From: Candidatus Lloydbacteria bacterium RIFCSPLOWO2_01_FULL_50_20
GTDB taxonomy: Bacteria > Patescibacteriota > Minisyncoccia > Phycocordibacterales > UBA6899
Reading direction: 5' to 3'
DNA: 64,000 bases
Assembly (NCBI GenBank): GCA_001821435.1
Contig: MHLP01000007.1
Location: 1,620-65,619 of the forward strand
A program made the translations under genes and the position numbers. This document shows positions 2,607 through 62,281 of this stretch, in pieces; positions within the stretch are counted from its first letter, which is position 1, and each line of letters begins with the position of its first letter. A model generated the notes under the pieces. It ran no database searches. It was given only the letters and a program-made list of their open reading frames with translations, and had not been told where the DNA came from.

Positions 2607-3824
2607 TTGTGGTATACTACCAATATTATGGAACAATCATCACCTCAGGTATATGCAACAGAACGTTTAAAAGCGGGCTTGAGTCCTGATGCGATCAAGC
2701 AGAATCTCCTTGCTGTCGGCTGGTCGGAAGAGGAGGCGAATACGGCCATCGTCGGAGGGCTTATCGCTCTCGGGGTCCCTGTTCCGCCGAACGGCGCGCG
2801 GACGGGCCACGGCAGACTCTCTTCGACCGTTGAAGTAGTGCTCAATTTCTTCTCATTTATCGCTCTTGGTGTTGTGGCGTTCGCGCTGGTGACGCTTTAT
2901 TACCAGATCATCAATTATTATTTTCCGGATCCGCTCATCATTCGTTACGGAGGCTCGGATGTCTCTTCGGAGGCAATCCATTATGCCATTGCTGCACTGA
3001 TCATCACTTTCCCGATCTATGTACTTGCCGTGCGGCTTTGGTTCAAGCGCTTTCGCGAAGATCTGGAAAAGGTGGAGACCAAGCTTACCAAGTGGCTTAC
3101 GTATCTCATACTGCTCGTCTCGGCGATCACCATTGTCGGTGACCTTATCGCGGCCGTATTTTTTCTCCTTCAAGGCGAAGTCACTCCGCGATTTTTCTTA
3201 AAGGCATTAGTTATCCTGATACTTGCGGGGATGATCTTCGGTTTCTATTTCTTAGAACGAAAAAAGATCCAATATCGCAGAGATATCCCGCGCCGCACAT
3301 TCCAGACCCTCGGATGGGTCGCGCTGGGGATCGTCCTTGTCGCGATCGTGCTCGGTTTTATTGTCGGCGGATCGCCCAGCACCGCGCGAAAGAGCGGTTT
3401 TGATACGCAGCGTGCAGATGATCTTCGAACGATAGCAAGCTGTGTCGCGAATTTCGGGATCAATCAAAAACGGCTCCCCGATACCCTTGGAGAGCTGTCG
3501 AAGAGCGGGCAATATGCATATTGTCTCTCGGGAATGGCAGATCCTGAAACGGGAATGCCGTATGAATATCGCATTGTCGTGCCTTCGGTTGTTGTCGGAG
3601 GAGTGCGCCAGGGAGAATTTGAGCTCTGTGCCGAGTTCTCGCTTCAGTCAGAAAGTGTCCCGATCGAGAAAAATGGCTATGGTTTTCCTCCAGACAAATG
3701 GAGCGAACATGGGTCGGGCAGAAACTGTGACACGGAAACGGCAAATTTGGAACGCTATCTTGATGCTCCTCTGCCGGGTGAAAGCGCAGTTCCCGCTCCA
3801 GCCATACAGTCGAGATACTATTAA
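2607..3824 (+). CDS. Multi-pass membrane protein: cytoplasmic N-terminal domain, about four TM helices, large C-terminal extracytoplasmic Cys-containing domain
   Basis: 405-aa ORF; TM segments after residue 85; the N-terminus is duplicated at 374.. Confidence 0.6.
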   Translation: MWYTTNIMEQSSPQVYATERLKAGLSPDAIKQNLLAVGWSEEEANTAIVGGLIALGVPVPPNGARTGHGRLSSTVEVVLNFFSFIALGVVAFALVTLYYQIINYYFPDPLIIRYGGSDVSSEAIHYAIAALIITFPIYVLAVRLWFKRFREDLEKVETKLTKWLTYLILLVSAITIVGDLIAAVFFLLQGEVTPRFFLKALVILILAGMIFGFYFLERKKIQYRRDIPRRTFQTLGWVALGIVLVAIVLGFIVGGSPSTARKSGFDTQRADDLRTIASCVANFGINQKRLPDTLGELSKSGQYAYCLSGMADPETGMPYEYRIVVPSVVVGGVRQGEFELCAEFSLQSESVPIEKNGYGFPPDKWSEHGSGRNCDTETANLERYLDAPLPGESAVPAPAIQSRYY

Positions 3825-4233: not shown

Positions 4234-4872
4234 ATGCGGAGATTATCCGATGAGCGACACAAGCATCTCGTTACTTTGCGAATGAGTGGCAAAAGTATTC
4301 CCGAAATCTCAAAAGAAACCGGAGTTGCAAAAACCACCGTTCTTCGCCACATAAAGGGTGTTCAAGTTCCACATAAATTTCAAACAATCCTTAGAGAAAA
4401 ACAAGGGGGGTCAAAAGATCGTGCTAAAGCCCTTCGAGTAAACATAACAGCGGAAACAGAGAAATTGGTGGGAAGTATTTCCAACCGAGATTACCTTTTC
4501 CTGCTCGTTGGATTGTATTGGGGTGAAGGCACCAAGATGGATTTCTCTGTAATTAACTCAGACCCGCTTCTTATACAAACCTTCATCCATTGCTTGAAAA
4601 CCCTAAATATAGCGAATGATCGGCTCGCTATTTCTCTGAGAGTGCATAGGGGAATTTCTATACCAGAAGCAAAAAGGTTCTGGGCTCGGACAACGGGTTT
4701 ACCGAAACAAATAATAGAGCGAGTTGAAATTATAGATGGAAAGAAGAAGGGGAAACTTCCGCACGGCATGTGTCGAGTGCGGGTGAGGTCAGGAATACGC
4801 GATCGCCTACTCATTCAAAGTGCCATAGATTTTATTGGAAAAGAATGTAATAAAGGAATAGTATCCCAATAA
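4234..4872 (+). CDS. Free-standing LAGLIDADG-like homing endonuclease (single motif) with an N-terminal HTH-like region
   Basis: Motif LLVGLYWGEGTK resembles LAGLIDADG; lower GC than the flanks; stop codon directly abuts tRNA-Arg. Confidence 0.5.
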   Translation: MRRLSDERHKHLVTLRMSGKSIPEISKETGVAKTTVLRHIKGVQVPHKFQTILREKQGGSKDRAKALRVNITAETEKLVGSISNRDYLFLLVGLYWGEGTKMDFSVINSDPLLIQTFIHCLKTLNIANDRLAISLRVHRGISIPEAKRFWARTTGLPKQIIERVEIIDGKKKGKLPHGMCRVRVRSGIRDRLLIQSAIDFIGKECNKGIVSQ

Positions 4873-5132: not shown

Positions 5133-5420
5133 ATGGAGCCCAATGAACAAAGAAAGATCGACGAGCTGCTTAAGCTTGAAAAGGAAAACAACAGCATGCT
5201 GCGCCGCATGCGGCGGAGCATGGTCTGGAGTCAGATCTTCACCGCCTTTTACTGGCTCGTGATACTTGGTGCGCTCGGTTGGTCATATTATTATTTGCAA
5301 CCTTATATTACGCAGTATTGGAACGCCTATCAGTCGGCAATAAAAACGCTGCATGAAATAGGGGAGCAAGGGAAAACCTTGCCGGCGAATCTTCAGGAAG
5401 TTCTTGATAAAGTTCGCTAG
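5133..5420 (+). CDS. Hypothetical small membrane protein
   Basis: 95-aa ORF with one TM segment (VWSQIFTAFYWLVILGALGW). Confidence 0.35.
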   Translation: MEPNEQRKIDELLKLEKENNSMLRRMRRSMVWSQIFTAFYWLVILGALGWSYYYLQPYITQYWNAYQSAIKTLHEIGEQGKTLPANLQEVLDKVR

Positions 5421-5443
5421 TGTGTTATTCTTGAAAAACTCCG

Positions 5444-5471
5444 ATTTCTGCTCGGGTAGCTGTTTTGGCAG
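5444..5471 (+). repeat. Diverged partial copy of the tRNA-Phe 5' region (leader plus nt 1-12, followed by GTTTTGGCAG) about 60 nt upstream of the gene
   Basis: tttctgctcgggtagct is identical to 5521-5537; the continuation gttttggcag differs from the genic cagttggtag; the same derived motif occurs upstream of tRNA-Lys. Confidence 0.6.
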
Positions 5472-5525
5472 ATAACGTTAGATGGTTACAAGGGTATTAT
5501 GTATGTGAAAAAGTTCGAAGTTTCT

Positions 5526-5598
5526 GCTCGGGTAGCTCAGTTGGTAGAGCGTCCGCCTGAAGAGCGGTAGGTCACCAGTTCGACCCTGGTCCCGAGCA
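5526..5598 (+). tRNA. tRNA-Phe (anticodon GAA), no CCA encoded
   Basis: Acceptor GCTCGGG/CCCGAGC, D-arm AGCTCAGTTGGTAGAGC, anticodon loop cuGAAga, T-loop GTTCGACCC. Confidence 0.8.
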
Positions 5599-5806
5599 CT
5601 TGTTAATGTTGAGCTACCCGAGTTTTAAGGAAGCTCAGTTAGCAAGCGAGGTCTCGCGAAGACACGAGACACCAGGCTCGCTTTTTGGTTAAGGAGCGTC
5701 CCGCCGGACGCACAATAGCACAACTCGCTTTCTCCGCTTCGCTTCGAAAACGATCTCCAATAAGCCGATCACCGAAGACGGCGAACCGGGTCGGCTTATT
5801 GGGGAA

Positions 5807-6385
5807 TTAATTATGAGTGATCGATTTCACTTTCAATTCCTGGGTTTTTGTCGTATCAACGCGGGGGAGTCTGATGACCAAGAGACCATACTTTTCAACG
5901 GCTTCAGCGCCATCGGTATCGATCTCGAAAGGAAGCTCAATGTTTCGCGAGAATTCTCCCCAGTAAAGCTCCCGCATTCTGTACCGTTCTTCTTGAACGC
6001 CCTTAGGTGCGACACGCTTTCCTTCGATAGTGACCATATCGCGCGTGATCGTGATATGCAGATTCTCCGGAGTAACACCCGCGATCATGCTTTGTATGAT
6101 AAGCTCATTGTCCTCTTCATACATATCGATCGCCAGCCCGGGCTCTTCATCGCCGTCTTCTTCTTCGTACGATGTTTCTTCCTCATCGATTTCCTCGTGT
6201 TCATTTTCAGTATCTCGAGCGTATCCATGATCTTCGCTCTCTTCTTCAGTATCATCTACACGCGGTGACCAAGGTTTCTCGCTCAGGATGTGCGCCGCCG
6301 AACTTCCTTTCATTGCCGAAGTTGTGTCTCCGATTGTCTGCGTACCGGTCAATCGCTCAAGAAATGATTGTTTTCGCTCTTTCAT
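5807..6385 (-). CDS. Hsp20/alpha-crystallin family small heat-shock protein with an acidic N-terminal extension
   Basis: C-terminal alpha-crystallin domain pattern (ELIIQSMIAGVTPENLHITI ... GLLVIRLPRV). Confidence 0.7.
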   Translation of the reverse strand: MKERKQSFLERLTGTQTIGDTTSAMKGSSAAHILSEKPWSPRVDDTEEESEDHGYARDTENEHEEIDEEETSYEEEDGDEEPGLAIDMYEEDNELIIQSMIAGVTPENLHITITRDMVTIEGKRVAPKGVQEERYRMRELYWGEFSRNIELPFEIDTDGAEAVEKYGLLVIRLPRVDTTKTQELKVKSITHN

Positions 6386-7167: not shown

Positions 7168-9361
7168 ATGGGGTCACGATAAGCGGCCGCTTTCTGTCGG
7201 GAAGCGATTGCCAGATCTCTTCAGTGATGAACGGCATGAAGGGGTGAAGAAGCACCAGACTCTTTTCGAGCAGCATGAAAAGCATATATTGCGCGGAAAG
7301 TTTATCAGCGGGATCTTCTCCGGTGAAGCGCGGTTTGCATTCTTCGAGGATCTTGTCGGCAAATGTGTGCCAGACATAGTGATAGATCTTTTCTCCGGCA
7401 ATATAAAAACGATACGCCTCGATGTCCTCGGTGATATCTTTTGCGATAGCGGTGAGCTCATCGAGGATCGCACGGTCTTTTTCCCCAAGCGCGGGCGGCT
7501 TACTGAGGTCGGTGCCTTCGATGGCTGTCAGAACAAAGCGTGAGATATTCCAAAGCTTATTCGCAAAATATTTATACGCCTTTACCTTATCCTCGGAGAT
7601 GCGGGTGTCGGTTCCCGGCGTGTTGCCGATGATGAGGGCCATACGTCCGGCATCCGCACCGAACTTTTTCGCGATGTCGATGGGATCTATACCGTTACCG
7701 AGCGATTTAGACATTTTTCTTCCATGCGCGTCGCGTACGGTGCCGTGAAGATAGACGGTGCGGAAAGGAATAGTACCGAGCGCGTATCCGGTCATGAGTA
7801 TCATGCGAGCAACCCAGAAAAAGAGGATCTCATAGCCTGTTTCGAGTACCGTTGTGAGGTGGTACGTCTCCAGATCTTTCGTCTTCTCCGGCCAGCCGAG
7901 CGTGGAGAATGTCCAGAGCCCCGAAGAGAACCATGTGTCGAGCGTATCGGGATCCTGATCCCAGCCTTCGCCGTCCGGCGCCTCGACACCCGCATACACC
8001 TCATCGTTTTGGCCTGCCGTGAGCTTCGTCGAACGGTACCATACAGGAATACGGTGTCCGTACCAGATCTGCCGTGAAATGCACCAATCGCGCAGGTTAT
8101 CTATCCAGTGAAAATAGGTTTTTTCAAAATGTTCAGGAATGATCGTTGTCGCACGGCTCTCGACCACCTTGCGCATGATCTCTTTCAGTGTTGTCTTTGA
8201 CCCTGATGCTATCCCCGGAATAGCGGAATAGGGGAGAGTGAATTCTTTGTTGACCGCAACAAACCACTGTTTCATGATCTGCGGTTCAATAAGTCCGCCC
8301 GTTCGTTCGGCTGTGGCCACGTTGTGTGTGTAGGCTTCTTCTTTGACGACGAGACCTTTTGCGCGCATTTTTTCCACAATTAGTGCACGAGCTTCGCTAA
8401 TTTTTTTCCCGGCAAATTCACCCGCTATCGAAAGTAGCCTCCCATAAGTATCAATGATCTGCTCCTTGTCGAGGTTATGCCGTTCTGCAATCTCAAAGTC
8501 GACCATACTATGCCACGGTGTGATCGTCATAACCCCTGTTCCGAACGCCATGTCGATGGCAGGGTCTTTTACCACTGTTGCAGTAATGGGGCCGTTGATC
8601 CATTCAAGTTCAAACTTTTCGCCATTTTTATATTTTGTATAGCGCTTGTCATCAGGATGCATGACAACGTACTTATCACCGAATTTCGTTTCCGGGCGGG
8701 CGGTGGCAATTTCAAACGGACCATACTTAAAAGTGTAAAATGTTGTTCCTTCTTCTTTGTAAACAATTTCATCGTCCGATATCGTTGTCTGACCCTTCGG
8801 ATCCCAGTTCACGATCCGCTGTCCCCGATAGACAAGACCGTCGTCATACATTTTTTTGAACATTGTCCGTACGGCCTTTGTGCGCACCTCGTCGAGCGTG
8901 AACGCTTCCCGCGACCAGTCACAAGAGGCGCCGGTCACCTTTATCTGTTCAACGATGGTGTCGTGGCTTTCTTTTGCGAATCGTTCGATCCGGCGCAGTA
9001 ATTCGTCGCGTCCGATATCGTGACGCGATCTTTTCTCTTTTTTATAGATGTCTTTCTCGACTTTTGCCTGAGTTGCTATGGCGGCATGGTCTGTTCCCGG
9101 AAGCCATAATGTCCGCTTTCCGCTCATGCGCGCAAAACGTATGAGAATGTCTTCGATGGTGATCATGAGCGCGTGGCCCATATGAAGCACCCCGGTCACA
9201 TTGGGCGGCGGCATGACGATCAAATAAGGCTCAGCATCGGCTTTCGTATACCCCTTTTTAACGCAAATATCCGGATCAAAGACGCCGAGATCGAGCCACA
9301 GCTGATAGATACGCCCCTCGGTTTCTTCGGGGTTATACGGAGACAGAAATTTAGGGTCCAT
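7157..9361 (-). CDS. valS: Valyl-tRNA synthetase (short form, 734 aa)
   Basis: PPPNVTGVLHMGHA (HIGH) and KMSKSLGN (KMSKS) class I motifs with ValRS-type surrounding sequence. Confidence 0.85.
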   Translation of the reverse strand: MDPKFLSPYNPEETEGRIYQLWLDLGVFDPDICVKKGYTKADAEPYLIVMPPPNVTGVLHMGHALMITIEDILIRFARMSGKRTLWLPGTDHAAIATQAKVEKDIYKKEKRSRHDIGRDELLRRIERFAKESHDTIVEQIKVTGASCDWSREAFTLDEVRTKAVRTMFKKMYDDGLVYRGQRIVNWDPKGQTTISDDEIVYKEEGTTFYTFKYGPFEIATARPETKFGDKYVVMHPDDKRYTKYKNGEKFELEWINGPITATVVKDPAIDMAFGTGVMTITPWHSMVDFEIAERHNLDKEQIIDTYGRLLSIAGEFAGKKISEARALIVEKMRAKGLVVKEEAYTHNVATAERTGGLIEPQIMKQWFVAVNKEFTLPYSAIPGIASGSKTTLKEIMRKVVESRATTIIPEHFEKTYFHWIDNLRDWCISRQIWYGHRIPVWYRSTKLTAGQNDEVYAGVEAPDGEGWDQDPDTLDTWFSSGLWTFSTLGWPEKTKDLETYHLTTVLETGYEILFFWVARMILMTGYALGTIPFRTVYLHGTVRDAHGRKMSKSLGNGIDPIDIAKKFGADAGRMALIIGNTPGTDTRISEDKVKAYKYFANKLWNISRFVLTAIEGTDLSKPPALGEKDRAILDELTAIAKDITEDIEAYRFYIAGEKIYHYVWHTFADKILEECKPRFTGEDPADKLSAQYMLFMLLEKSLVLLHPFMPFITEEIWQSLPDRKRPLIVTPYDY

Positions 9362-12305: not shown

Positions 12306-13193
12306 AAGAAAACGTTCCAAACGCTCGGAGTGTTTGAGATTACTCGTTCCAATTTCTTTGAAATATCTTACAATATTTTCTCTTTTCCGCAAATAGATCG
12401 ATCGATGTGTGCCAACTCCGCCAGTTGGATTATAATCTAGTGCCAGCAATATCTCGATGATATCTTTCCTTAGAGATTCGGAGGCACTGCTGAAGAGTAG
12501 TCCAATTCCTTGATAGCGTCGACCCTTTATTACACGAAAATCTTGGTACACCGATCCGTCCGTATCGAAAAGTCCCCGCAGAAAGCTTTTTTTGTAATTT
12601 TTATTTTGTGTTATCCACAGGGGAATATGCAGATTGCCAGCCAACTTATTTCCTTTGGGCATTCCCTTTTTGTGTAAAAAATTCACAAGATTTTTTGCGG
12701 TCACTACCACGGTAAGCGCATTCTGCCCCTTCTTTTTTCTGATGCGAGCGCGAAGACCAAAAAGGAGATAGATCATTTTTTGCACAAACTCCGCATGTTC
12801 ACTATCCGTTTTAGAATTAGTCGTTACACTCATCCAATATGTAGCGAGATGTCCATCGCCAATAAGGATGCCAAGGAATTCAGCGAGCAATCGTGAGTTT
12901 CTCGGGCGACGAATTTGAGTGAGCTGTTTGAATTGGGTTTTTCTTAAGTGATGAGTCCGTAGGGAATTTAATCCTCCCTTGCGCCGTCCTTCTTCTGTGC
13001 CAGGATTTCCATATAAACGAATGCGCGAATATCCACCCTCACTTGCAATATGCCTCAAGCGTGTTGCGCGAAATTCATTCATAAATTTCATGCTATATTT
13101 CGAGTAGCAATTTGTCAACCGGTCTACAGCAGGAAACTTGTTTTTTGTGCCGCATGATGTTAGTATCACAACCATCAGGCCCATCGTCTTCAT
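12291..13193 (-). CDS. Double-motif LAGLIDADG homing endonuclease (free-standing)
   Basis: Two LAGLIDADG motifs: LLAEFLGILIGDGHL and FLRGLFDTDGSVY; AT-rich; the stop codon overlaps the 5' end of tRNA-Ser and the start lies about 36 nt from tRNA-Glu. Confidence 0.8.
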   Translation of the reverse strand: MKTMGLMVVILTSCGTKNKFPAVDRLTNCYSKYSMKFMNEFRATRLRHIASEGGYSRIRLYGNPGTEEGRRKGGLNSLRTHHLRKTQFKQLTQIRRPRNSRLLAEFLGILIGDGHLATYWMSVTTNSKTDSEHAEFVQKMIYLLFGLRARIRKKKGQNALTVVVTAKNLVNFLHKKGMPKGNKLAGNLHIPLWITQNKNYKKSFLRGLFDTDGSVYQDFRVIKGRRYQGIGLLFSSASESLRKDIIEILLALDYNPTGGVGTHRSIYLRKRENIVRYFKEIGTSNLKHSERLERFLGGVA

Positions 13194-13228
13194 GGCGTAA
13201 ATGGAGGCTGAATGCCAGTTTTTAGACT

Positions 13229-23497: not shown

Positions 23498-23697
23498 GAG
23501 CTAAATAGTACCATAAATCATGAAAAAATGCAATGCGAATGCGTATACCCGCCTTATCAGATATTCATGCGTTGGATAGTACAGGGCTCTCGACTACCGT
23601 CGCGGGTGGTTTTCGATTTACTCGAACGAAGTTCTCGTAAATAACGAAAACCCTTTCGAGCCCCGCCGAAGCACAAGCAGCTGTGCTTCTACTGCTG

Positions 23698-23770: not shown

Positions 23771-23900
23771 TTGTGGTGATCAAAATATACCTAACGGATG
23801 AATGCCATGCTCCCCGCCCGTACCGAACGGCACGTTCGGGCGGGTAACCAACTGCTTGCCCCGGTAGCAAGTCTTCTTTGCTACCGGGGAGCACATCGTC
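23771..23900. ncRNA. Candidate structured RNA adjacent to tRNA-Val: nested helices closed by a 7-bp acceptor-like stem (gctcccc/ggggagc), a 12-bp hairpin (ccccggtagcaa/ttgctaccgggg) and an 8-bp hairpin (cccgcccg/cgggcggg)
   Basis: Complementarity read directly; no ORF; identity unknown. Confidence 0.35.
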
Positions 23901-24075
23901 CGTTATTCCAAAAATACTAACACAAAGAAATGGTGGGCGGTAGAGAAAGGAATTTGTTGCAGCCGCGAGCTTTTTTGTGAAAAAAAATTTGACATTTCTT
24001 TAAAATTTGCGATAGTTCCGTAAGTCAATTTCTGCTCTTTCACAAAGGGGAACTATCATCACTACCAAAACACCG

Positions 24076-24516
24076 ATGGATGGTACGATGTGGTATCTTG
24101 GACTGTATACGCCGATCACCGATCCCGCAGAGCTTGAGAAAGATTTTGGCGCCTTTTTGGTTGGCGCAGGTTTCCAGATCGTTTCGGGTCTTCTGAAGCC
24201 GTTTCAGCCTCAAGGCTACAGCTCATACAAAAAGCTTTCCGTAGATGCTTTTCTACTGAGCGAGAGTCATTCTTCCATGCATACATTTCCTGAAGAGGAT
24301 CGTACATATGTCGATTTGTTGAGCTGTGTGAAAGCTCAACTTGAACGATTCCATGAACTCATCAGGCCATGGGAGGGAACAGTAGTATTTGTGGTGGAAC
24401 AGCCGTCGATCATCATGCCGCCCAAAGGCATGAAAAAAGTGGGCGCTATTTCGCGTGAGCTTCGCGCCTTCCGTTCCGCTGCACTACGGGCACAAAAAAT
24501 GAAAGACCGACAATGA
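24076..24516 (+). CDS. speH: S-adenosylmethionine decarboxylase proenzyme (pyruvoyl-dependent, SpeH/SpeD type)
   Basis: Self-processing region FLLSESHSSMHTFPEE matches the AdoMetDC ES|H cleavage motif. Confidence 0.75.
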   Translation: MDGTMWYLGLYTPITDPAELEKDFGAFLVGAGFQIVSGLLKPFQPQGYSSYKKLSVDAFLLSESHSSMHTFPEEDRTYVDLLSCVKAQLERFHELIRPWEGTVVFVVEQPSIIMPPKGMKKVGAISRELRAFRSAALRAQKMKDRQ

Positions 24517-59512: not shown

Positions 59513-59575
59513 AAATTATACAACAAAGAACTTATGTTAATTTCTAGACATCGTTATTATAACGTTTTGTGATTG

Positions 59576-59648
59576 TGCCCCCGGGAGGATTCGAACCTCC
59601 GACCGTCTCGTTAAGAGCGAGCTGCTCTACCAACTGAGCTACGAAGGC
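59576..59648 (-). tRNA. tRNA-Lys (anticodon CTT)
   Basis: Reverse-complement fold: acceptor GCCTTCG/CGGGGGC with two G-U pairs, anticodon loop cuCUUaa, T-loop GGTTCGAATCC. Confidence 0.75.
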
Positions 59649-59661
59649 ATTGTTAAGCTAA

Positions 59662-59693
59662 CGACCTGCCAAAACAGCTACGAAGGCAGGCAC
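59662..59693 (-). repeat. Diverged partial copy of the tRNA-Lys 5' region (nt 1-12 then GTTTTGGCAG) about 35 nt upstream of the gene, embedded in a cctgcc...ggcagg hairpin
   Basis: Minus-strand cctgccttcgtagctgttttggcagg versus the gene gccttcgtagctcagttggtag; the same derived GTTTTGGCAG occurs upstream of tRNA-Phe. Confidence 0.6.
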
Positions 59694-59743
59694 ATTAATT
59701 GTGTTTGTATTCTAGCAAATAAAGCTTGAAATGCAATCAAATT

Positions 59744-61426: not shown

Positions 61427-61706
61427 CTTTTCTCCTTTAAGGTACAGTTCTCTACGGCACTATTAGCCAGAGATTGTCAGTTTCTTGCGATTCTGGAAAT
61501 ATTACCAATATAGCATATATGAGCTTGAAAGTCAAGCTCAATAGAAAAAGCCCCTATTCTAGGCTTTTTCTAGGTTTCAGTATTGGATTAAAAAATTTTC
61601 TTCCCCCAAAATGCGAAACCGCCAATTCGTTTCTTCCCCCAAAATTGAATACAAATTAGTCGCCGAGCGAAGCGAGGCGAACCTTTCAAACTTGCAATTT
61701 CCTACG

Positions 61707-61804: not shown

Positions 61805-62281
61805 CTAGCCCCTCTTTTTATTTCTACCACGATGTGTGGGTTGCAGGCTATGGCAATTTGGGCAAAGTATTCTTAAGTTAGTAATCCTATTATCATAACG
61901 GTCGCCGTTGATGTGGTCGAGCTCAAGTGGGAGCCGTCCATCAGGGGAAATTGTCGCCCAACTGCACTGCTCACATTTTGGCTCCTTTCTTCCTTCAGCG
62001 AACAGCCTCTTTTTTAGTTTATAACTTTGGAAGTTGTTATTTTTCGTAAGTATTTGCGTAAGGGAGTAAACCGGTTCGCGGGGGATCTTCCTGCCCTTGT
62101 TTGCTCCTACACTTAAAAAGTGATCAGTATTTATGTGACACTCCTTGATATGTCTCTTTATTTGTTCATAATTTCCCCCTGCTTCCACAAGCCCAAGTCG
62201 ATGTAAAACCTGACGCCTATTGGTTGAAAGATGTACGGCATCACGCAAACTCGCCTCATCCCATTTTTTGTGCCGTGACAT
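61805..62281 (-). CDS. Free-standing HNH homing-endonuclease-like protein
   Basis: HNH motif LELDHINGDRYDNRITNLRILCPNCH plus an upstream CxxC (CEQC); AT-rich; wedged between tRNA-Leu(TAA) and tRNA-Cys. Confidence 0.75.
   Translation of the reverse strand: MSRHKKWDEASLRDAVHLSTNRRQVLHRLGLVEAGGNYEQIKRHIKECHINTDHFLSVGANKGRKIPREPVYSLTQILTKNNNFQSYKLKKRLFAEGRKEPKCEQCSWATISPDGRLPLELDHINGDRYDNRITNLRILCPNCHSLQPTHRGRNKKRG

What the first reader, a model, noticed from the sequence alone, without database searches (positions are those of the whole stretch)
5444..5598. Diverged copy of the tRNA 5' region carrying a shared derived motif (GTTTTGGCAG) upstream of tRNA-Phe and tRNA-Lys
About 60 nt upstream of tRNA-Phe lies tttctgctcgggtagct + gttttggcag, which equals the gene's leader plus nt 1-12 followed by a variant D-arm. 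About 35 nt upstream of tRNA-Lys (minus strand, 59662-59693) lies gccttcgtagct + gttttggcag, the same construction. In both cases the genic cagttggtag is replaced by the identical gttttggcag, and the copy sits inside a hairpin (tctgc...gcaga, cctgcc...ggcagg). Identical derived changes at two unrelated tRNAs argue for a functional element rather than independent decay. Options are a leader regulatory or processing structure, a remnant att core, or a target mimic for the tRNA-adjacent endonucleases.
Basis: seen in the sequence. Interest (0 to 1): 0.55.

Follow-up and report, generated by a model that had tools for sequence, protein, structure and literature searches.

The report
Vestigial tRNA starts upstream of tRNAs
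Just upstream of tRNA-Phe and tRNA-Lys lies a leftover copy of each gene's first 12 bases followed by one shared ~30-base block that originates from the tRNA-Lys locus; it is a repeat-prone duplication scar that is common in this group of tiny bacteria and may carry a second promoter, not a conserved RNA hairpin.

Summary
TAGCTGTTTTGGCAG occurs exactly twice in the window, each time after a perfect copy of the neighbouring tRNA's first 12 nt.

It is not chance. The same element precedes the orthologous tRNA-Lys(CTT) in at least four other Parcubacteria lineages, once as a 6 x 39-nt tandem array. The 12-nt stub always matches that genome's own tRNA.

The two window copies are not independent decay. 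The whole 27-30-nt block is homologous (0/2000 shuffles), resembles tRNA-Lys and not tRNA-Phe, and was found only at Lys loci in the genome, metagenome and viral scans. The Phe copy is therefore secondary.

The proposed hairpin has no comparative support. Relatives lacking the element start the tRNA exactly where the window has the stub, 21 nt (Lys) or 18 nt (Phe) after the canonical -10 box. So the stub marks the old gene start and lies in the transcribed leader.

The block's 3' half (CGTTAGMTT) resembles the lineage's TGnTAGAAT tRNA promoters. At Lys it lies 6 nt from tRNA +1, so it may be a proximal promoter.

5' stubs are enriched at tRNAs across these genomes (6/52 at p<=0.01). Best reading: slippage-prone partial tandem duplication across the tRNA 5' boundary. 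Modest interest.

The parts
5404..5431 (+). Canonical (distal) promoter of the tRNA-Phe unit: TTGATA-16 nt-TATTCT with TG before the -10. It overlaps the stop codon of the 95-aa ORF.
   Evidence: Promoter scan. The -10 lies 18 nt before the stub. That equals the 18 nt between the -10 (TATTTT) and tRNA-Phe +1 in relative L017, which has no stub.
5445..5461 (+). 5' stub of tRNA-Phe: leader TTTCT plus tRNA nt 1-12 (GCTCGGGTAGCT). It is 17/17 identical to 5521-5537.
   Evidence: 0/200 shuffles; p=0.000.
5462..5491 (+). Lys-type block at the Phe locus: GTTTTGGCAG-ATAA-CGTTAG-ATGG-TTACAA. It contains the shared motif and a -10-like box, CGTTAGATG (5476-5484), that lacks the final T.
   Evidence: Homologous over its full length to the Lys block (score 30, 0/2000 shuffles). 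No similarity to tRNA-Phe nt 13-end (461/2000). Aligns ungapped with the L023 D-arm plus TGTTAGAAT (2/2000).
5492..5525 (+). Diverged duplicate of the Phe locus's own -10 and leader: GGG-TATTAT-gtatg-TGAAAAAgTtCGA-ag-TTTCT. It ends at tRNA-Phe +1.
   Evidence: Local alignment to the distal ORF end, promoter and leader: 11/2000 shuffles. Read directly from the sequence.
5526..5599 (+). Intact tRNA-Phe(GAA).
   Evidence: ARAGORN; Rfam tRNA 67.3 bits.
5610..5670 (+). Further tRNA-Phe debris downstream. It comprises an inverted copy of nt 2-14 (TGAGCTACCCGAG, 5610-5622), a D-arm-like piece AGCTCAGTTAGCAAGCG (5632-5648) and an anticodon-arm-like hairpin with GAA (5649-5670).
   Evidence: (inverted 13-mer, p about 0.005). 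In L023 the following ~150-nt element sits inside a broken old tRNA-Phe. The link to the upstream stub is inferred.
59709..59736 (-). Canonical (distal) promoter of the tRNA-Lys unit: TTGCAT-16 nt-TAGAAT with an extended -10, TGCTAGAAT.
   Evidence: Aligns with the TTGCGA-16 nt-TGTTAGAAT / TGCTATGAT promoters of relatives L014, L015 and L018. The -10 is 21 nt from the stub. L014 and L015 have exactly 21 nt from the -10 to tRNA-Lys +1.
59676..59687 (-). 5' stub of tRNA-Lys: GCCTTCGTAGCT, 12/12 identical to tRNA-Lys nt 1-12.
   Evidence: Identical in two other assemblies of the species.
59649..59675 (-). Lys block, 27 nt: GTTTTGGCAGGTCGTTAGCTTAACAAT. It contains the shared motif and a -10-like box, CGTTAGCTT (59663-59655), whose hexamer ends 6 nt before tRNA +1. 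Stub plus block make a 39-nt unit.
   Evidence: 20/21 identical to the block in L009 and L005, whose tRNA-Lys genes are only 75-78% identical to the window's. The same 39-nt period occurs as a 6.2-copy array in L009. Resembles tRNA-Lys nt 24-40 (7/2000).
59575..59648 (-). Intact tRNA-Lys(CTT).
   Evidence: ARAGORN; Rfam tRNA 66.9 bits.

Best explanation
The finding is the visible part of a "5' stub repeat".

(1) Origin of the structure.
- A partial tandem duplication spanning the 5' boundary of a tRNA gene leaves, upstream of the intact gene, a dead copy of the gene's first 12 nt. This is the stub.
- After the stub comes the sequence that precedes the next copy.
- The canonical promoter still sits in front of the stub. 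The stub and the block are therefore transcribed as a longer 5' leader, which RNase P would remove. This step is inferred.

(2) Nature of the block.
- The block carrying GTTTTGGCAG is a single old sequence native to the tRNA-Lys(CTT) locus of Parcubacteria.
- Its 5' half looks like a decayed D-arm or tRNA interior.
- Its 3' half (CGTTAGMTT) looks like the lineage's extended -10 tRNA promoter (TGnTAGAAT).
- At Lys it ends 6 nt before tRNA +1, so it may act, or once have acted, as a proximal promoter starting at or next to the mature 5' end. This is inferred and was not tested.

(3) How stub identity is kept.
- Replication slippage or unequal exchange between the stub and the tRNA 5' end expands, contracts, deletes and refreshes the 39-nt unit.
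- That explains three observations: stubs that stay identical to each genome's own acceptor stem, a sharp junction after nt 12, and copy numbers of 0, 1 and 6 in relatives.

(4) The Phe copy.
- It is a secondary copy of the Lys block, lodged at the junction of a duplication of the Phe promoter, leader and 5' end.
- The most likely route is template switching through the shared GTAGCT. The mechanism is inferred.
- Its -10-like box is broken (TAGATG), and a duplicated Phe -10 (TATTAT) lies downstream of it.

The shared motif therefore reflects common descent of one block, not convergent selection on an RNA hairpin.
For: Shown by tool results:

- Orthologous instances. The element lies upstream of tRNA-Lys(CTT) in the conserved Cys/Leu(TAA)/Lys(CTT)/Leu(TAG) cluster. 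It is present in L001/L009 (Zambryskibacteria), L003/L005/L007, L020 and L018, and in badly decayed form in L021 and perhaps L019.
- Tandem array. L009 has period 39, 6.2 copies and 87% matches, plus a higher-order 117-nt repeat. The array runs into the tRNA's own 5' end.
- Stub tracks the local tRNA. The stub matches each genome's own tRNA at 12/12 in the window, L009 and L020, 10/12 in L005 and 9/12 in L018. Stubs from different genomes share only 5-11/12.
- Stub sits at the old gene start. L014 and L015 have no element, and their tRNA starts 21 nt after the -10 of the same promoter. The window's stub starts 21 nt after its -10. At Phe the distance is 18 nt in both L017 and the window. L022 is pristine.
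- One block, two places. Phe block against Lys block: 0/2000 shuffles. Phe block against tRNA-Phe: 461/2000. Lys block against tRNA-Lys: 7/2000. The rest of the Phe spacer against the Phe locus's own promoter and leader: 11/2000.
- Lys-locus origin. The genome and metagenome scans found tRNA-linked hits only at tRNA-Lys; the viral scan found no tRNA-linked hit.
- Intermediate form. L023 reads GCTCGGGTAGCT[hairpin]CAGTTGGCAGAGC-ATGTTAGAAT-11 nt-tRNA start.
- Promoter resemblance. TGnTAGAAT-like boxes lie 5-22 nt upstream of many tRNAs in these genomes. One example is TGTTAGATT, 8 nt before L020 tRNA-Cys.
- State of the box. It keeps G-14, T-12, A-11 and T-7 where it abuts the tRNA (window Lys, L009). 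It is broken in three of the four displaced copies.
- General trait. 6 of 52 tRNAs have an upstream copy of their own first 12 nt at p<=0.01, against about 0.5 expected. The canonical -10 lies in front of the stub at window Val(CAC) and Glu, and at tRNA-Cys in L014, L015, L018 and L019.
Against: - The block is better conserved than a neutral relic should be. Window against L009 or L005 is 20/21 identical, while the tRNA-Lys genes are 75-78% identical. This needs selection (for example promoter function) or recent transfer, and neither is shown.
- The promoter reading is weak on standard criteria. The box has CG where the lineage's boxes have TG. There is no -35, and the sigma-70 scan finds no promoter in the L009 array or in the window blocks.
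- The link between box integrity and position rests on six cases and is not significant. L005 is an exception.
- Whether the 5' half of the block is a decayed D-arm, a decayed anticodon arm or old promoter spacer cannot be settled on about 20 nt.
- The sharp junction after nt 12 at every locus, plus small palindromes inserted at exactly 12|13 in other stubs (L023, window Val(CAC)), also fit a site-specific insertion process.
- The route of the block from the Lys locus to the Phe locus is pure inference.
Confidence: 0.6

Rival explanations
1. Footprint of site-specific insertion or horizontal transfer. A mobile DNA (an integrase-borne element, or a small MITE-like cassette) targets the D-loop of tRNA genes at TAGCT|CAGTTGG. 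It brings a replacement leader and 5' end, and it displaces the resident 5' end, which becomes the stub. GTTTTGGCAG..CGTTAG would then be the conserved end of that element. Alternatively, the block spreads between genomes by recombination that uses the tRNA itself as portable homology.
For: - The junction is always after nt 12.
- The distribution among relatives is patchy.
- The window's block is closer to those of distant L009 and L005 (20/21) than to that of close relative L018 (17/21).
- L023 shows a 176-nt inverted-repeat-bounded cassette carrying a different tRNA-Phe allele, inserted in the D-loop of the resident tRNA-Phe. The old 3' remainder lies downstream.
- GC-rich palindromes sit at exactly 12|13 in the L023 stub and the window Val(CAC) stub.
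- Partial tRNA copies are the classic result of element integration (PMC9897764).
- An ~85-nt element follows the CCA end of three different tRNAs in three genomes, so tRNA-targeting DNA is active in this group.
Against: - Only 27-66 nt separate the stub from the tRNA at every locus. No integrase, cargo or terminal repeats belong to the block.
- A 39-nt head-to-tail array is a slippage signature, not an integration signature.
- The viral-contig scan found only 3 hits, none near a tRNA.
- Clade-specific variants (TAGCT in the window and L018, TAGAT in L009, L005 and L020) fit vertical descent.
- Integrases normally duplicate the 3' part of the tRNA.
- The Phe spacer is largely a duplicate of local Phe sequence.
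Confidence: 0.17
2. Functional leader RNA. The stub plus block, transcribed ahead of the tRNA, folds into a hairpin or partial tRNA mimic (acceptor 5' strand plus a variant D-arm). This structure would control RNase P processing, tRNA folding or stability, or would act as a decoy for a factor that recognises the tRNA 5' region.
For: - The element lies downstream of the canonical promoter, so it is probably transcribed.
- The block is 95% identical between genomes whose tRNA-Lys genes are 75-78% identical.
- The Lys hairpin folds better than shuffles (z -2.9).
- A 3-bp CUG/CAG D-arm-like stem is kept, including G-U variants.
- Other tRNA leaders in this group hold tRNA-derived modules, and the tRNA-Cys stubs show covarying stems.
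Against: - The proposed hairpin pairs in 68.5% of cells against 67.7% in shuffles, with no compensatory change. It is absent in L009, L020 and L018.
- The Phe hairpin is not better than shuffles (z -0.9).
- The element is dispensable. It is absent in L014 and L015. It is drifting in L018, whose tRNA-Lys is 73/73 identical to the window's.
- Copy number ranges from 0 to 6.
- There is no Rfam match, even at E<=10.
- What is conserved is sequence, not structure.
Confidence: 0.12
3. Target mimic or immunity site for the endonucleases encoded next to tRNA genes in the window. The variant D-arm would be an uncleavable copy of a homing-endonuclease site.
For: - An HNH endonuclease ORF (61805-62281, - strand) abuts tRNA-Leu(TAA).
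- HNH genes occur in Patescibacteria tRNA introns (bioRxiv 10.1101/2025.07.03.662931).
- Several rearrangement junctions fall in the D-loop.
Against: - No endonuclease gene lies at the Phe or Lys loci.
- The ORF next to tRNA-Arg gives only weak HTH hits. LAGLIDADG is not confirmed.
- No displaced tRNA fragments lie upstream of either ORF.
- The two tRNA-Val genes carry the same D-arm sequence. Val(GAC) has no stub; Val(CAC) has a decayed stub (9/12), but it is followed by palindromes and its own D-arm, not by the GTTTTGGCAG block.
- Nothing links the block to any nuclease.
Confidence: 0.03

Closest known systems
Partial tRNA gene copies (tRNA gene fragments) left by integration of mobile elements at tRNA genes (att-site duplications)
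   Same: - A short exact direct repeat of part of a tRNA gene lies next to an intact copy.
- The fragment is non-functional and confuses annotation.
- tRNA genes act as recombination hot spots (PMC9897764).
   Different: - The known cases flank 9-23 kb of integrated DNA with an integrase. To my knowledge they usually duplicate the 3' part of the tRNA (my own knowledge; the paper read does not say which part).
- Here the 5' 12 nt is duplicated, and the copies are 27-66 nt apart with no cargo.
- The unit can be tandemly amplified (6 x 39 nt).
- The stub lies between the promoter and the gene.
Tandem repeats linked to bacterial tRNA genes, such as the 178-bp repeats after E. coli tyrT that each contain the 3' end of tRNA-Tyr (from my own knowledge; not found in the paper library)
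   Same: - Head-to-tail units each include a terminal piece of the adjacent tRNA gene.
- They are thought to arise by unequal recombination or slippage.
   Different: - Those repeats lie downstream and carry the tRNA 3' end. They are longer, and they encode products (rtT RNA, Tpr).
- Here the units are upstream, are 39 nt long and carry the 5' end plus a promoter-like box.
Tandem duplication followed by decay of one copy, leaving pseudo-tRNA remnants (the tandem duplication-random loss model of organelle genomes; PMC5122201, listed)
   Same: - A duplication that includes a tRNA is followed by degeneration and deletion of one copy.
- Recognisable fragments remain beside the working gene. Window tRNA-Glu and L019 tRNA-Cys look just like this.
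   Different: - This is a bacterial chromosome.
- The surviving copy was the downstream one at every upstream stub I examined.
- The first 12 nt are kept or refreshed to perfect identity while the rest is unrecognisable.
Extended -10 (TGn) promoters, tandem P1/P2 promoters of stable-RNA operons, and transcription that starts at the mature tRNA 5' end as in Nanoarchaeum equitans (PMC3491384 and PMC10100707, listed)
   Same: - The block holds a box one or two mismatches from the lineage's TGnTAGAAT tRNA promoters.
- At Lys it is placed so that initiation would fall at or next to tRNA +1.
- With the distal promoter this would make a tandem promoter pair.
   Different: - It has CG instead of TG and no -35.
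- There are no transcript data.
- N. equitans is an archaeon with a different promoter type, and its leaderless tRNAs go with loss of RNase P, which was not examined here.

Membership tests
att-site duplication made by an integrating element | The direct repeats of the tRNA segment flank an integrated element (kb-sized, usually with an integrase gene) | tested here: not met
   Repeats are 27 nt (Lys) and 59 nt (Phe) apart in the window and 27-66 nt apart in relatives. No ORF lies between them.
att-site duplication made by an integrating element | An identical core is shared by the partial and the complete tRNA copy | tested here: met
   12/12 (Lys) and 17/17 (Phe) identity.
att-site duplication made by an integrating element | A matching attP-like sequence occurs on phages or other mobile DNA | tested here: not met
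   The viral-contig scan gave 3 hits, none near a tRNA. Only one collection and one pattern were tried.
Slippage-type tandem repeat (minisatellite) | Head-to-tail units of constant period | tested here: met
   L009 has period 39, 6.2 copies and 87% matches. The window's Lys locus has one 39-nt unit plus the tRNA start.
Slippage-type tandem repeat (minisatellite) | Copy number differs among related genomes, including precise loss | tested here: met
   0 units in L014 and L015, 1 in the window, L005, L018 and L020, and 6 in L009. No variation was seen within the window's own species (2 other assemblies).
Bacterial extended -10 promoter | TGn directly upstream of a TAnnnT hexamer | tested here: inconclusive
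   The block has CGT-TAGCTT (Lys) or CGT-TAGATT (L009, L005). G-14, T-12, A-11 and T-7 are present, but T-15 is C. The Phe copy, TAGATG, lacks T-7. The lineage's tRNA promoters read TGnTAGAAT.
Bacterial extended -10 promoter | Placed a few nt upstream of a transcript start that makes sense for the gene | tested here: inconclusive
   6 nt to tRNA +1 in the window's Lys locus and in L009. This is within the 5-22 nt range seen for other tRNAs. The distance is about 40 nt in L005, L018, L020 and the window's Phe locus.
Bacterial extended -10 promoter | A mapped transcription start | not testable with these tools
   No transcript data are available.
Structured cis-acting leader RNA | A secondary structure conserved across homologues and supported by covariation | tested here: not met
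   The 6-bp hairpin pairs in 68.5% of cells against 67.7% in shuffles, with 0 compensatory pairs. The 3-bp D-arm-like stem shows no covariation.
Structured cis-acting leader RNA | Match to a described RNA family | tested here: not met
   Rfam gave only the tRNAs at gathering threshold. Nothing credible appeared at E<=10 over 5300-5900.
tRNA pseudogene | Recognisable tRNA-like sequence or structure over most of the molecule | tested here: not met
   No tRNA model hit on the stub plus block at E<=10. Beyond nt 12 only weak similarity remains: Lys block against tRNA-Lys nt 24-40, 7/2000 shuffles.

The most novel reading that the evidence does not exclude
The 39-nt unit is a selected, promoter-sized module and not debris. 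In this reading, stub plus block form a compact promoter that starts transcription exactly at the mature 5' end of tRNA-Lys. Tandem amplification of the module would tune tRNA-Lys(CTT) dosage.

More broadly, Parcubacteria would systematically place tRNA-derived modules (5' stubs, minihelix-like stubs with covarying stems as at tRNA-Cys) in tRNA leaders. These modules would act in transcription or processing control. That would explain why the block is better conserved than the tRNA itself across classes of Parcubacteria.
Probability: 0.15. Interest if true: 0.65.

Novelty: new variant of a known kind. Interest (0 to 1): 0.35.

Why it matters
Partial tRNA gene copies are normally read as signs of integrated mobile elements. 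Here they are a different thing: short 5' stubs sitting between the promoter and the gene. They can be amplified in tandem, and they are common across a group of reduced-genome (CPR) bacteria.

This matters in three practical ways.

1. Annotation. Stubs and stub arrays can be mistaken for att sites, pseudogenes or regulatory RNAs.
2. Genome evolution. The loci show how single-copy tRNA genes in minimal genomes turn over by duplication, replacement and decay without loss of function.
3. Transcription. The data give a first sketch of tRNA promoters in Parcubacteria (TGnTAGAAT, 5-22 nt from the gene). They also point to a testable candidate for tandem or near-leaderless tRNA promoters.

If the block proved to be under selection, it would be a rare conserved non-coding element in CPR bacteria.

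Tried and rejected
- **Chance.** Rejected, because orthologous instances exist and shuffle tests are clear.
- **Assembly artefact.** Rejected, because the unit is identical in independent assemblies.
- **Conserved hairpin.** Rejected.
- **Sigma-54 promoter (TGGCA-N-TTGC-like).** Considered by eye. The -12 GC is absent in L009 and L005, and the spacing differs by 2 nt at Phe, so I dropped it.
- **TTGGCA as a -35 box.** The distance to any -10-like hexamer is 6-13 nt and not 16-18, so I dropped it.
- **Small ORF or repeat peptide.** Stops occur in all forward frames. One reverse frame is open across the L009 array, but the window has a single unit, so I dropped it.
- **Pairing of the block with the tRNA-Lys anticodon loop.** UCGUUAG can pair with UUAACGA in the window, but the pairing is not kept in L009. 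Dropped.
- **Phe block as a diverged duplicate of the ORF end (GTTCTTGATAAAGTTCGCTAG).** The similarity is weaker than to the Lys block, and the local alignment uses it only partly. It remains a minor possibility for the ATAA..GTT part.
- **Displaced tRNA fragments upstream of the HNH ORF and the ORF next to tRNA-Arg.** None found.
- **The hit at 24062-24076 (TCGGTGTTTTGGTAG).** No tRNA copy is attached, so I treat it as chance.
- **Collection hits L002, L004, L006, L008 and L010-L013.** No tRNA lies near the match, so I treat them as chance.
- **Literature search for tRNA-linked repeats and tyrT.** Nothing usable.
- **Full reconstruction of the window and L023 Phe loci by alignment.** Only partly successful. 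The history is too complex for three sequences.
Full report
**1. What is in the sequence**

Phe locus (+ strand):
- The 17-mer TTTCTGCTCGGGTAGCT occurs at 5445-5461 and again at 5521-5537. It consists of 5 nt of leader plus tRNA-Phe nt 1-12.
- After the first copy comes GTTTTGGCAG (5462-5471), where the gene has CAGTTGGTAG.

Lys locus (- strand):
- GCCTTCGTAGCT occurs at 59687-59676 and again as nt 1-12 of tRNA-Lys(CTT) (59648-59575).
- The first copy is followed by the same GTTTTGGCAG.

Frequency:
- The 15-mer TAGCTGTTTTGGCAG is exact only at these two places in 64 kb.
- The bare 10-mer with one mismatch is at chance frequency.

Extent of the similarity:
- Both copies continue with CGTTAG and TTA(A)CAA.
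- So a whole 27-nt (Lys) or 30-nt (Phe) block is shared. Its local alignment scores 30, and 0 of 2000 shuffles reach that.

Two other assemblies of the same species from different samples have the identical Lys unit.

**2. Organism**

- RbfA and the small ORF next to tRNA-Phe are 100% identical to proteins of a Candidatus Lloydbacteria MAG (Parcubacteria, CPR).
- Rfam finds nothing but the ten tRNAs in the window.

**3. Other instances**

A scan of species-representative genomes with TAGCTGTTTTGGCAG-N2-4-CGTTAG returned one contig, from a Zambryskibacteria MAG.
- The same tRNA-Lys(CTT), in the same Cys/Leu(TAA)/Lys/Leu(TAG) cluster beside rbfA and infB, is preceded by about six head-to-tail 39-nt units.
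- TRF gives period 39, 6.2 copies and 87% matches. A higher-order 117-nt repeat runs into the tRNA's own first bases.
- Each unit is [leader + first 12 nt of that genome's tRNA-Lys, CCGCCCATAGCT or a decayed version] + GTTTTGGCAGGTCGTTAGATT + 6 nt.

A metagenome scan found the element again upstream of tRNA-Lys(CTT) in a third organism (L003/L005/L007). The other hits, and the three viral-contig hits, have no tRNA nearby and are chance.

Orthologous loci fetched without reference to the motif, through RbfA homologues, give the following:

| Locus | State of the element |
|---|---|
| L020 | Present; 12/12 stub, block 17/21 |
| L018 | Present but decaying; stub 9/12, block 17/21 |
| L021 | Barely recognisable |
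| L019 | Perhaps present, barely recognisable |
| L014, L015 | Absent |

**4. The stub marks the old gene start**

Lys locus:
- L014, L015, L018 and the window share a promoter: TTGC(G/A)(A/T), 16 nt, then TG(T/C)TA(G/T)(A/G)AT.
- In L014 and L015 the tRNA begins 21 nt after the -10 hexamer.
- In the window the stub begins 21 nt after it. The real tRNA is 39 nt further on.

Phe locus:
- The scan-predicted promoter is TTGATA-16 nt-TATTCT. Its -10 is 18 nt from the stub.
- In L017 the homologous -10 is 18 nt from the tRNA itself.
- L022 has the same tRNA-Phe allele with no stub.

So the stub and block most likely lie inside the transcribed 5' leader. This is an inference, because there are no transcript data.

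**5. The two window copies are not independent**

| Comparison | Shuffles reaching the score |
|---|---|
| Phe block vs Lys block (full length, two small indels) | 0/2000 |
| Phe block vs tRNA-Phe beyond nt 12 | 461/2000 |
| Lys block vs tRNA-Lys nt 24-40 | 7/2000 |
| Rest of the Phe spacer (5492-5525) vs the Phe locus's own -10 and leader | 11/2000 |

- The rest of the Phe spacer reads TATTAT..TGAAAAA..CGA..TTTCT, against the distal TATTCT TGAAAAA..CGA TTTCT.
- In the public collections the block was found only at Lys loci.
- The Phe locus is therefore a duplication of the Phe promoter, leader and first 12 nt, with a copy of the Lys block at the junction.
- Template switching through the shared GTAGCT would produce this. 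That step is inferred.
The identical "derived" changes arose once.

**6. The hairpin**

- The Lys hairpin folds better than shuffles (z -2.9). The Phe hairpin does not (z -0.9).
- Across nine instances, the 6-bp helix pairs in 68.5% of cells against 67.7% in column shuffles. No pair changes on both sides.
- It is present in the window copies and in L005, and absent in L009, L020 and L018.
- A 3-bp CUG/CAG stem in D-arm position is kept, with G-U variants but no covariation.

**7. What the block is made of**

L023 supplies an intermediate at a Phe locus. After the L022-type promoter comes:
- GCTCGGGTAGCT
- a 30-nt GC hairpin
- CAGTTGGCAGAGC (tRNA nt 13-25, with the same T-to-C change that gives GGCAG)
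- ATGTTAGAAT
- 11 nt
- the next copy of the tRNA start

This aligns ungapped with the window's GTTTTGGCAGATAACGTTAGAT (2/2000 shuffles).

A survey of 52 tRNAs shows that TGnTAGAAT-type extended -10 boxes, 5-22 nt upstream, are the usual tRNA promoter in these genomes. Examples:
- TGTTAGAAT at L005 Leu, L014 and L018 Lys, and L023
- TGTTAGTAT at window Glu and Val(CAC)
- TGTTAGATT, 8 nt before L020 tRNA-Cys

So the block's 3' half, CGTTAG(A/C)TT, is a one- or two-mismatch version of that box.
- In the window's Lys locus and in L009 its hexamer ends 6 nt before tRNA +1. Initiation would then fall at or next to the mature 5' end.
- The box keeps G-14, T-12, A-11 and T-7 in those two loci and in L005.
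- It has lost a key base in L020, L018 and the window's Phe copy. All three are about 40 nt from the tRNA, with other -10-like boxes in between.
- That fits a promoter constrained only when correctly placed. Six cases prove nothing, though.
- It has CG and not TG, there is no -35, and the sigma-70 scan sees no promoter in the array.

**8. Constraint**

- Window against L018: tRNA-Lys 73/73 identical, block 17/21, stub 9/12. The element drifts at an intergenic rate in L018.
- Window against L009 or L005: tRNA 75-78% identical, block 20/21.
- The clade-specific base after TAG (C in the window and L018; A in L009, L005 and L020) fits vertical descent.
- The high conservation in some lineages needs either selection (a promoter would do) or transfer. 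I cannot decide between them.

**9. How stub identity is kept**

- Acceptor stems differ between genomes: GCCTTCG, CCGCCCA, CCGCCCG, GCGTCCA. Yet the stub equals the local tRNA in the window, L009 and L020.
- In the L009 array, units with a perfect stub and the tRNA's own leader (gaatatCCGCCCATAGCT) alternate with decayed ones.
- Slippage between the stub and the tRNA start recopies block + leader + fresh 12 nt.
- The same process deletes the unit precisely. That gives the L014/L015 state.
- This explains the sharp junction after nt 12 without invoking selection.

**10. A general trait**

- For 52 tRNAs, the best upstream match to the gene's own first 12 nt reached p<=0.01 in six cases, against about 0.5 expected. 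It reached p<=0.05 in about a dozen.
- In the clearest cases the canonical -10 box lies in front of the stub:
  - Window Val(CAC): TGTTAGTAT, 12 nt, GGACGatgtGCT, a palindrome, CAGTTGGTtA, a palindrome, GAGCA, ..CGTTAGGTATATT, 13 nt, tRNA.
  - Window Glu: TGTTAGTAT, 11 nt, a tRNA-Glu copy lacking nt 14-32, about 12 nt, tRNA.
  - tRNA-Cys in L014, L015, L018 and L019. L005 tRNA-Cys also has a 12/12 upstream stub, but I did not identify a -10 box in front of it.
- L016 tRNA-Arg has a 5' half of another allele 165 nt upstream of the gene. No -10 box in front of it was identified.
- L023 also shows outright replacement. A 176-nt inverted-repeat-bounded cassette carrying a different tRNA-Phe allele sits in the D-loop of the old gene. 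The old gene's remaining parts lie downstream.

**11. Comparison with what is known**

- Partial tRNA copies are well known as products of element integration (PMC9897764). Those flank kilobases of DNA and, to my knowledge, usually duplicate the 3' part (my own knowledge; the paper read does not say which part).
- Group I introns with HNH genes occur in Patescibacteria tRNAs at position 35/36 (bioRxiv 10.1101/2025.07.03.662931). That is a different phenomenon.
- I found no description of 5' stubs or stub arrays in tRNA leaders.

**12. Verdict**

- This is a real, non-random, evolutionarily recurrent feature.
- Its best explanation is mutational: partial tandem duplication, slippage and ectopic copying at tRNA 5' boundaries. 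A promoter-like box may add function.
- It is a new variant of a known kind.
- Interest is modest (0.35).
- The reading that it is a selected promoter or leader module is not excluded (about 0.15).

Noticed in passing
window 13158-13228 (+): Upstream of tRNA-Glu(TTC) lies an extended -10 box, TGTTAGTAT (13158-13166). After 11 nt comes a decayed tRNA-Glu copy (13178-13216) that keeps nt 1-13 and about nt 33-55 but lacks the D-arm 3' side and the anticodon stem 5' side. After about 12 more nt comes the intact gene. The order is promoter, dead copy, live gene.
   Followed up: partly
window 23784-23922 (-): Upstream of tRNA-Val(CAC), in order:
- TGTTAGTAT
- 12 nt
- stub GGACGATGTGCT (9/12)
- a 35-nt GC-rich palindrome inserted exactly after nt 12
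- CAGTTGGTTA
- a 32-nt palindrome (CCCGCCC...GGGCGGG)
- GAGCA
- CGTTAGGTATATT
- 13 nt
- the tRNA

Small GC-rich palindromes seem to target the D-arm of stubs. L023 has one at the same 12|13 position.
   Followed up: partly
window 23573-23589 (-): A direct copy of the 3' end of tRNA-Val(CAC) (GAGCCCTGTACTATCCA, 15/17) lies about 110 nt downstream of the gene. This is the classic att-like 3' duplication, but I did not look for an associated element.
   Followed up: no
window 5610-5800 (+); L023 3577-3790: - Downstream of tRNA-Phe lie an inverted copy of its nt 2-14, a D-arm-like piece and an anticodon-arm-like hairpin with GAA.
- After these comes a ~150-nt element (gacaccagg..gctttttggttaaggag...cgcttcgcttcgaaaacgatctccaata).
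- In L023 that element sits inside a broken old tRNA-Phe, between about nt 47 and the T-arm.
- Its first hairpin covaries between the two genomes (GCGAG/CTCGC against GCCAA/TTGGC).
- Its nature is unknown.
   Followed up: partly
L023 3401-3576: A 176-nt cassette bounded by inverted repeats (TTGCCCGCCCACTTAAG ... CTTAAGTGGGCGGGTGA) carries an intact tRNA-Phe of a different allele (GCCGAGG...). It is inserted in the D-loop of the resident tRNA-Phe (GCTCGGG... allele). The resident gene's 3' parts and its terminator remain downstream. It looks like a miniature mobile tRNA-gene cassette replacing its own target.
   Followed up: partly
window about 61620-61706 (-); L014 about 9149-9230; L024 about 3189-3270: An ~85-nt conserved sequence directly follows the CCA end of three different tRNAs in three genomes: Leu-TAA in the window, Lys in L014 and Phe in L024. 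It reads cgtaggaaa..gtcaaag..ggttcgcctcgcttcgctcggcgactaa.ttgtattcaattttggggg. In the window and in L014 it lies at the tRNA-proximal edge of roughly 2 kb of genes that separate neighbouring tRNAs (about 200 nt in L018); whether it marks the end of an inserted element was not tested.
   Followed up: partly
window 61805-62281 (-) and 4234-4872 (+): An HNH endonuclease ORF (Pfam HNH_3, 27.1 bits) ends 11 nt before tRNA-Leu(TAA) on the same strand. A 212-aa ORF ends at the base before tRNA-Arg(CCT). The second ORF has a LAGLIDADG-looking motif (LLVGLYWGEGTK), but Pfam gives only weak N-terminal HTH hits.
   Followed up: partly
L014 6400-6675; L015 6420-6501; L018 3110-3187: Upstream of tRNA-Cys in three Lloydbacteria-like genomes, in order:
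- a TG(C/T)TATA(T/G)T box
- a few nt (8 nt in L018)
- a minihelix-like stub: an acceptor-type stem (L015 GGCGTGA...TCACGCC) plus one hairpin with a compensatory change (AAGGAT/ATCCTT against AAGGGT/ACCCTT)
- a conserved ~48-nt leader (cgttcggtcgaagaacaa..acattt.ttc.tcttcctc.cta)
- the tRNA

The stub-plus-leader unit is doubled in L014. This might be a structured leader RNA.
   Followed up: no
L016 3636-3837: A 5' half of tRNA-Arg(CCT) (nt 1-38, ending in the anticodon loop) lies 165 nt upstream of the intact tRNA-Arg. It has a different acceptor stem (GCCTCTG against GCCCCCA) but is identical from nt 8 to nt 38.
   Followed up: no
window and loci L005-L024: tRNA genes in these Parcubacteria are typically preceded by an extended -10 box of the form TGnTAGAAT (variants include TAGTAT and TATATT), only 5-22 nt from tRNA +1. 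A recognisable -35 is often missing. This implies very short or absent 5' leaders.
   Followed up: partly
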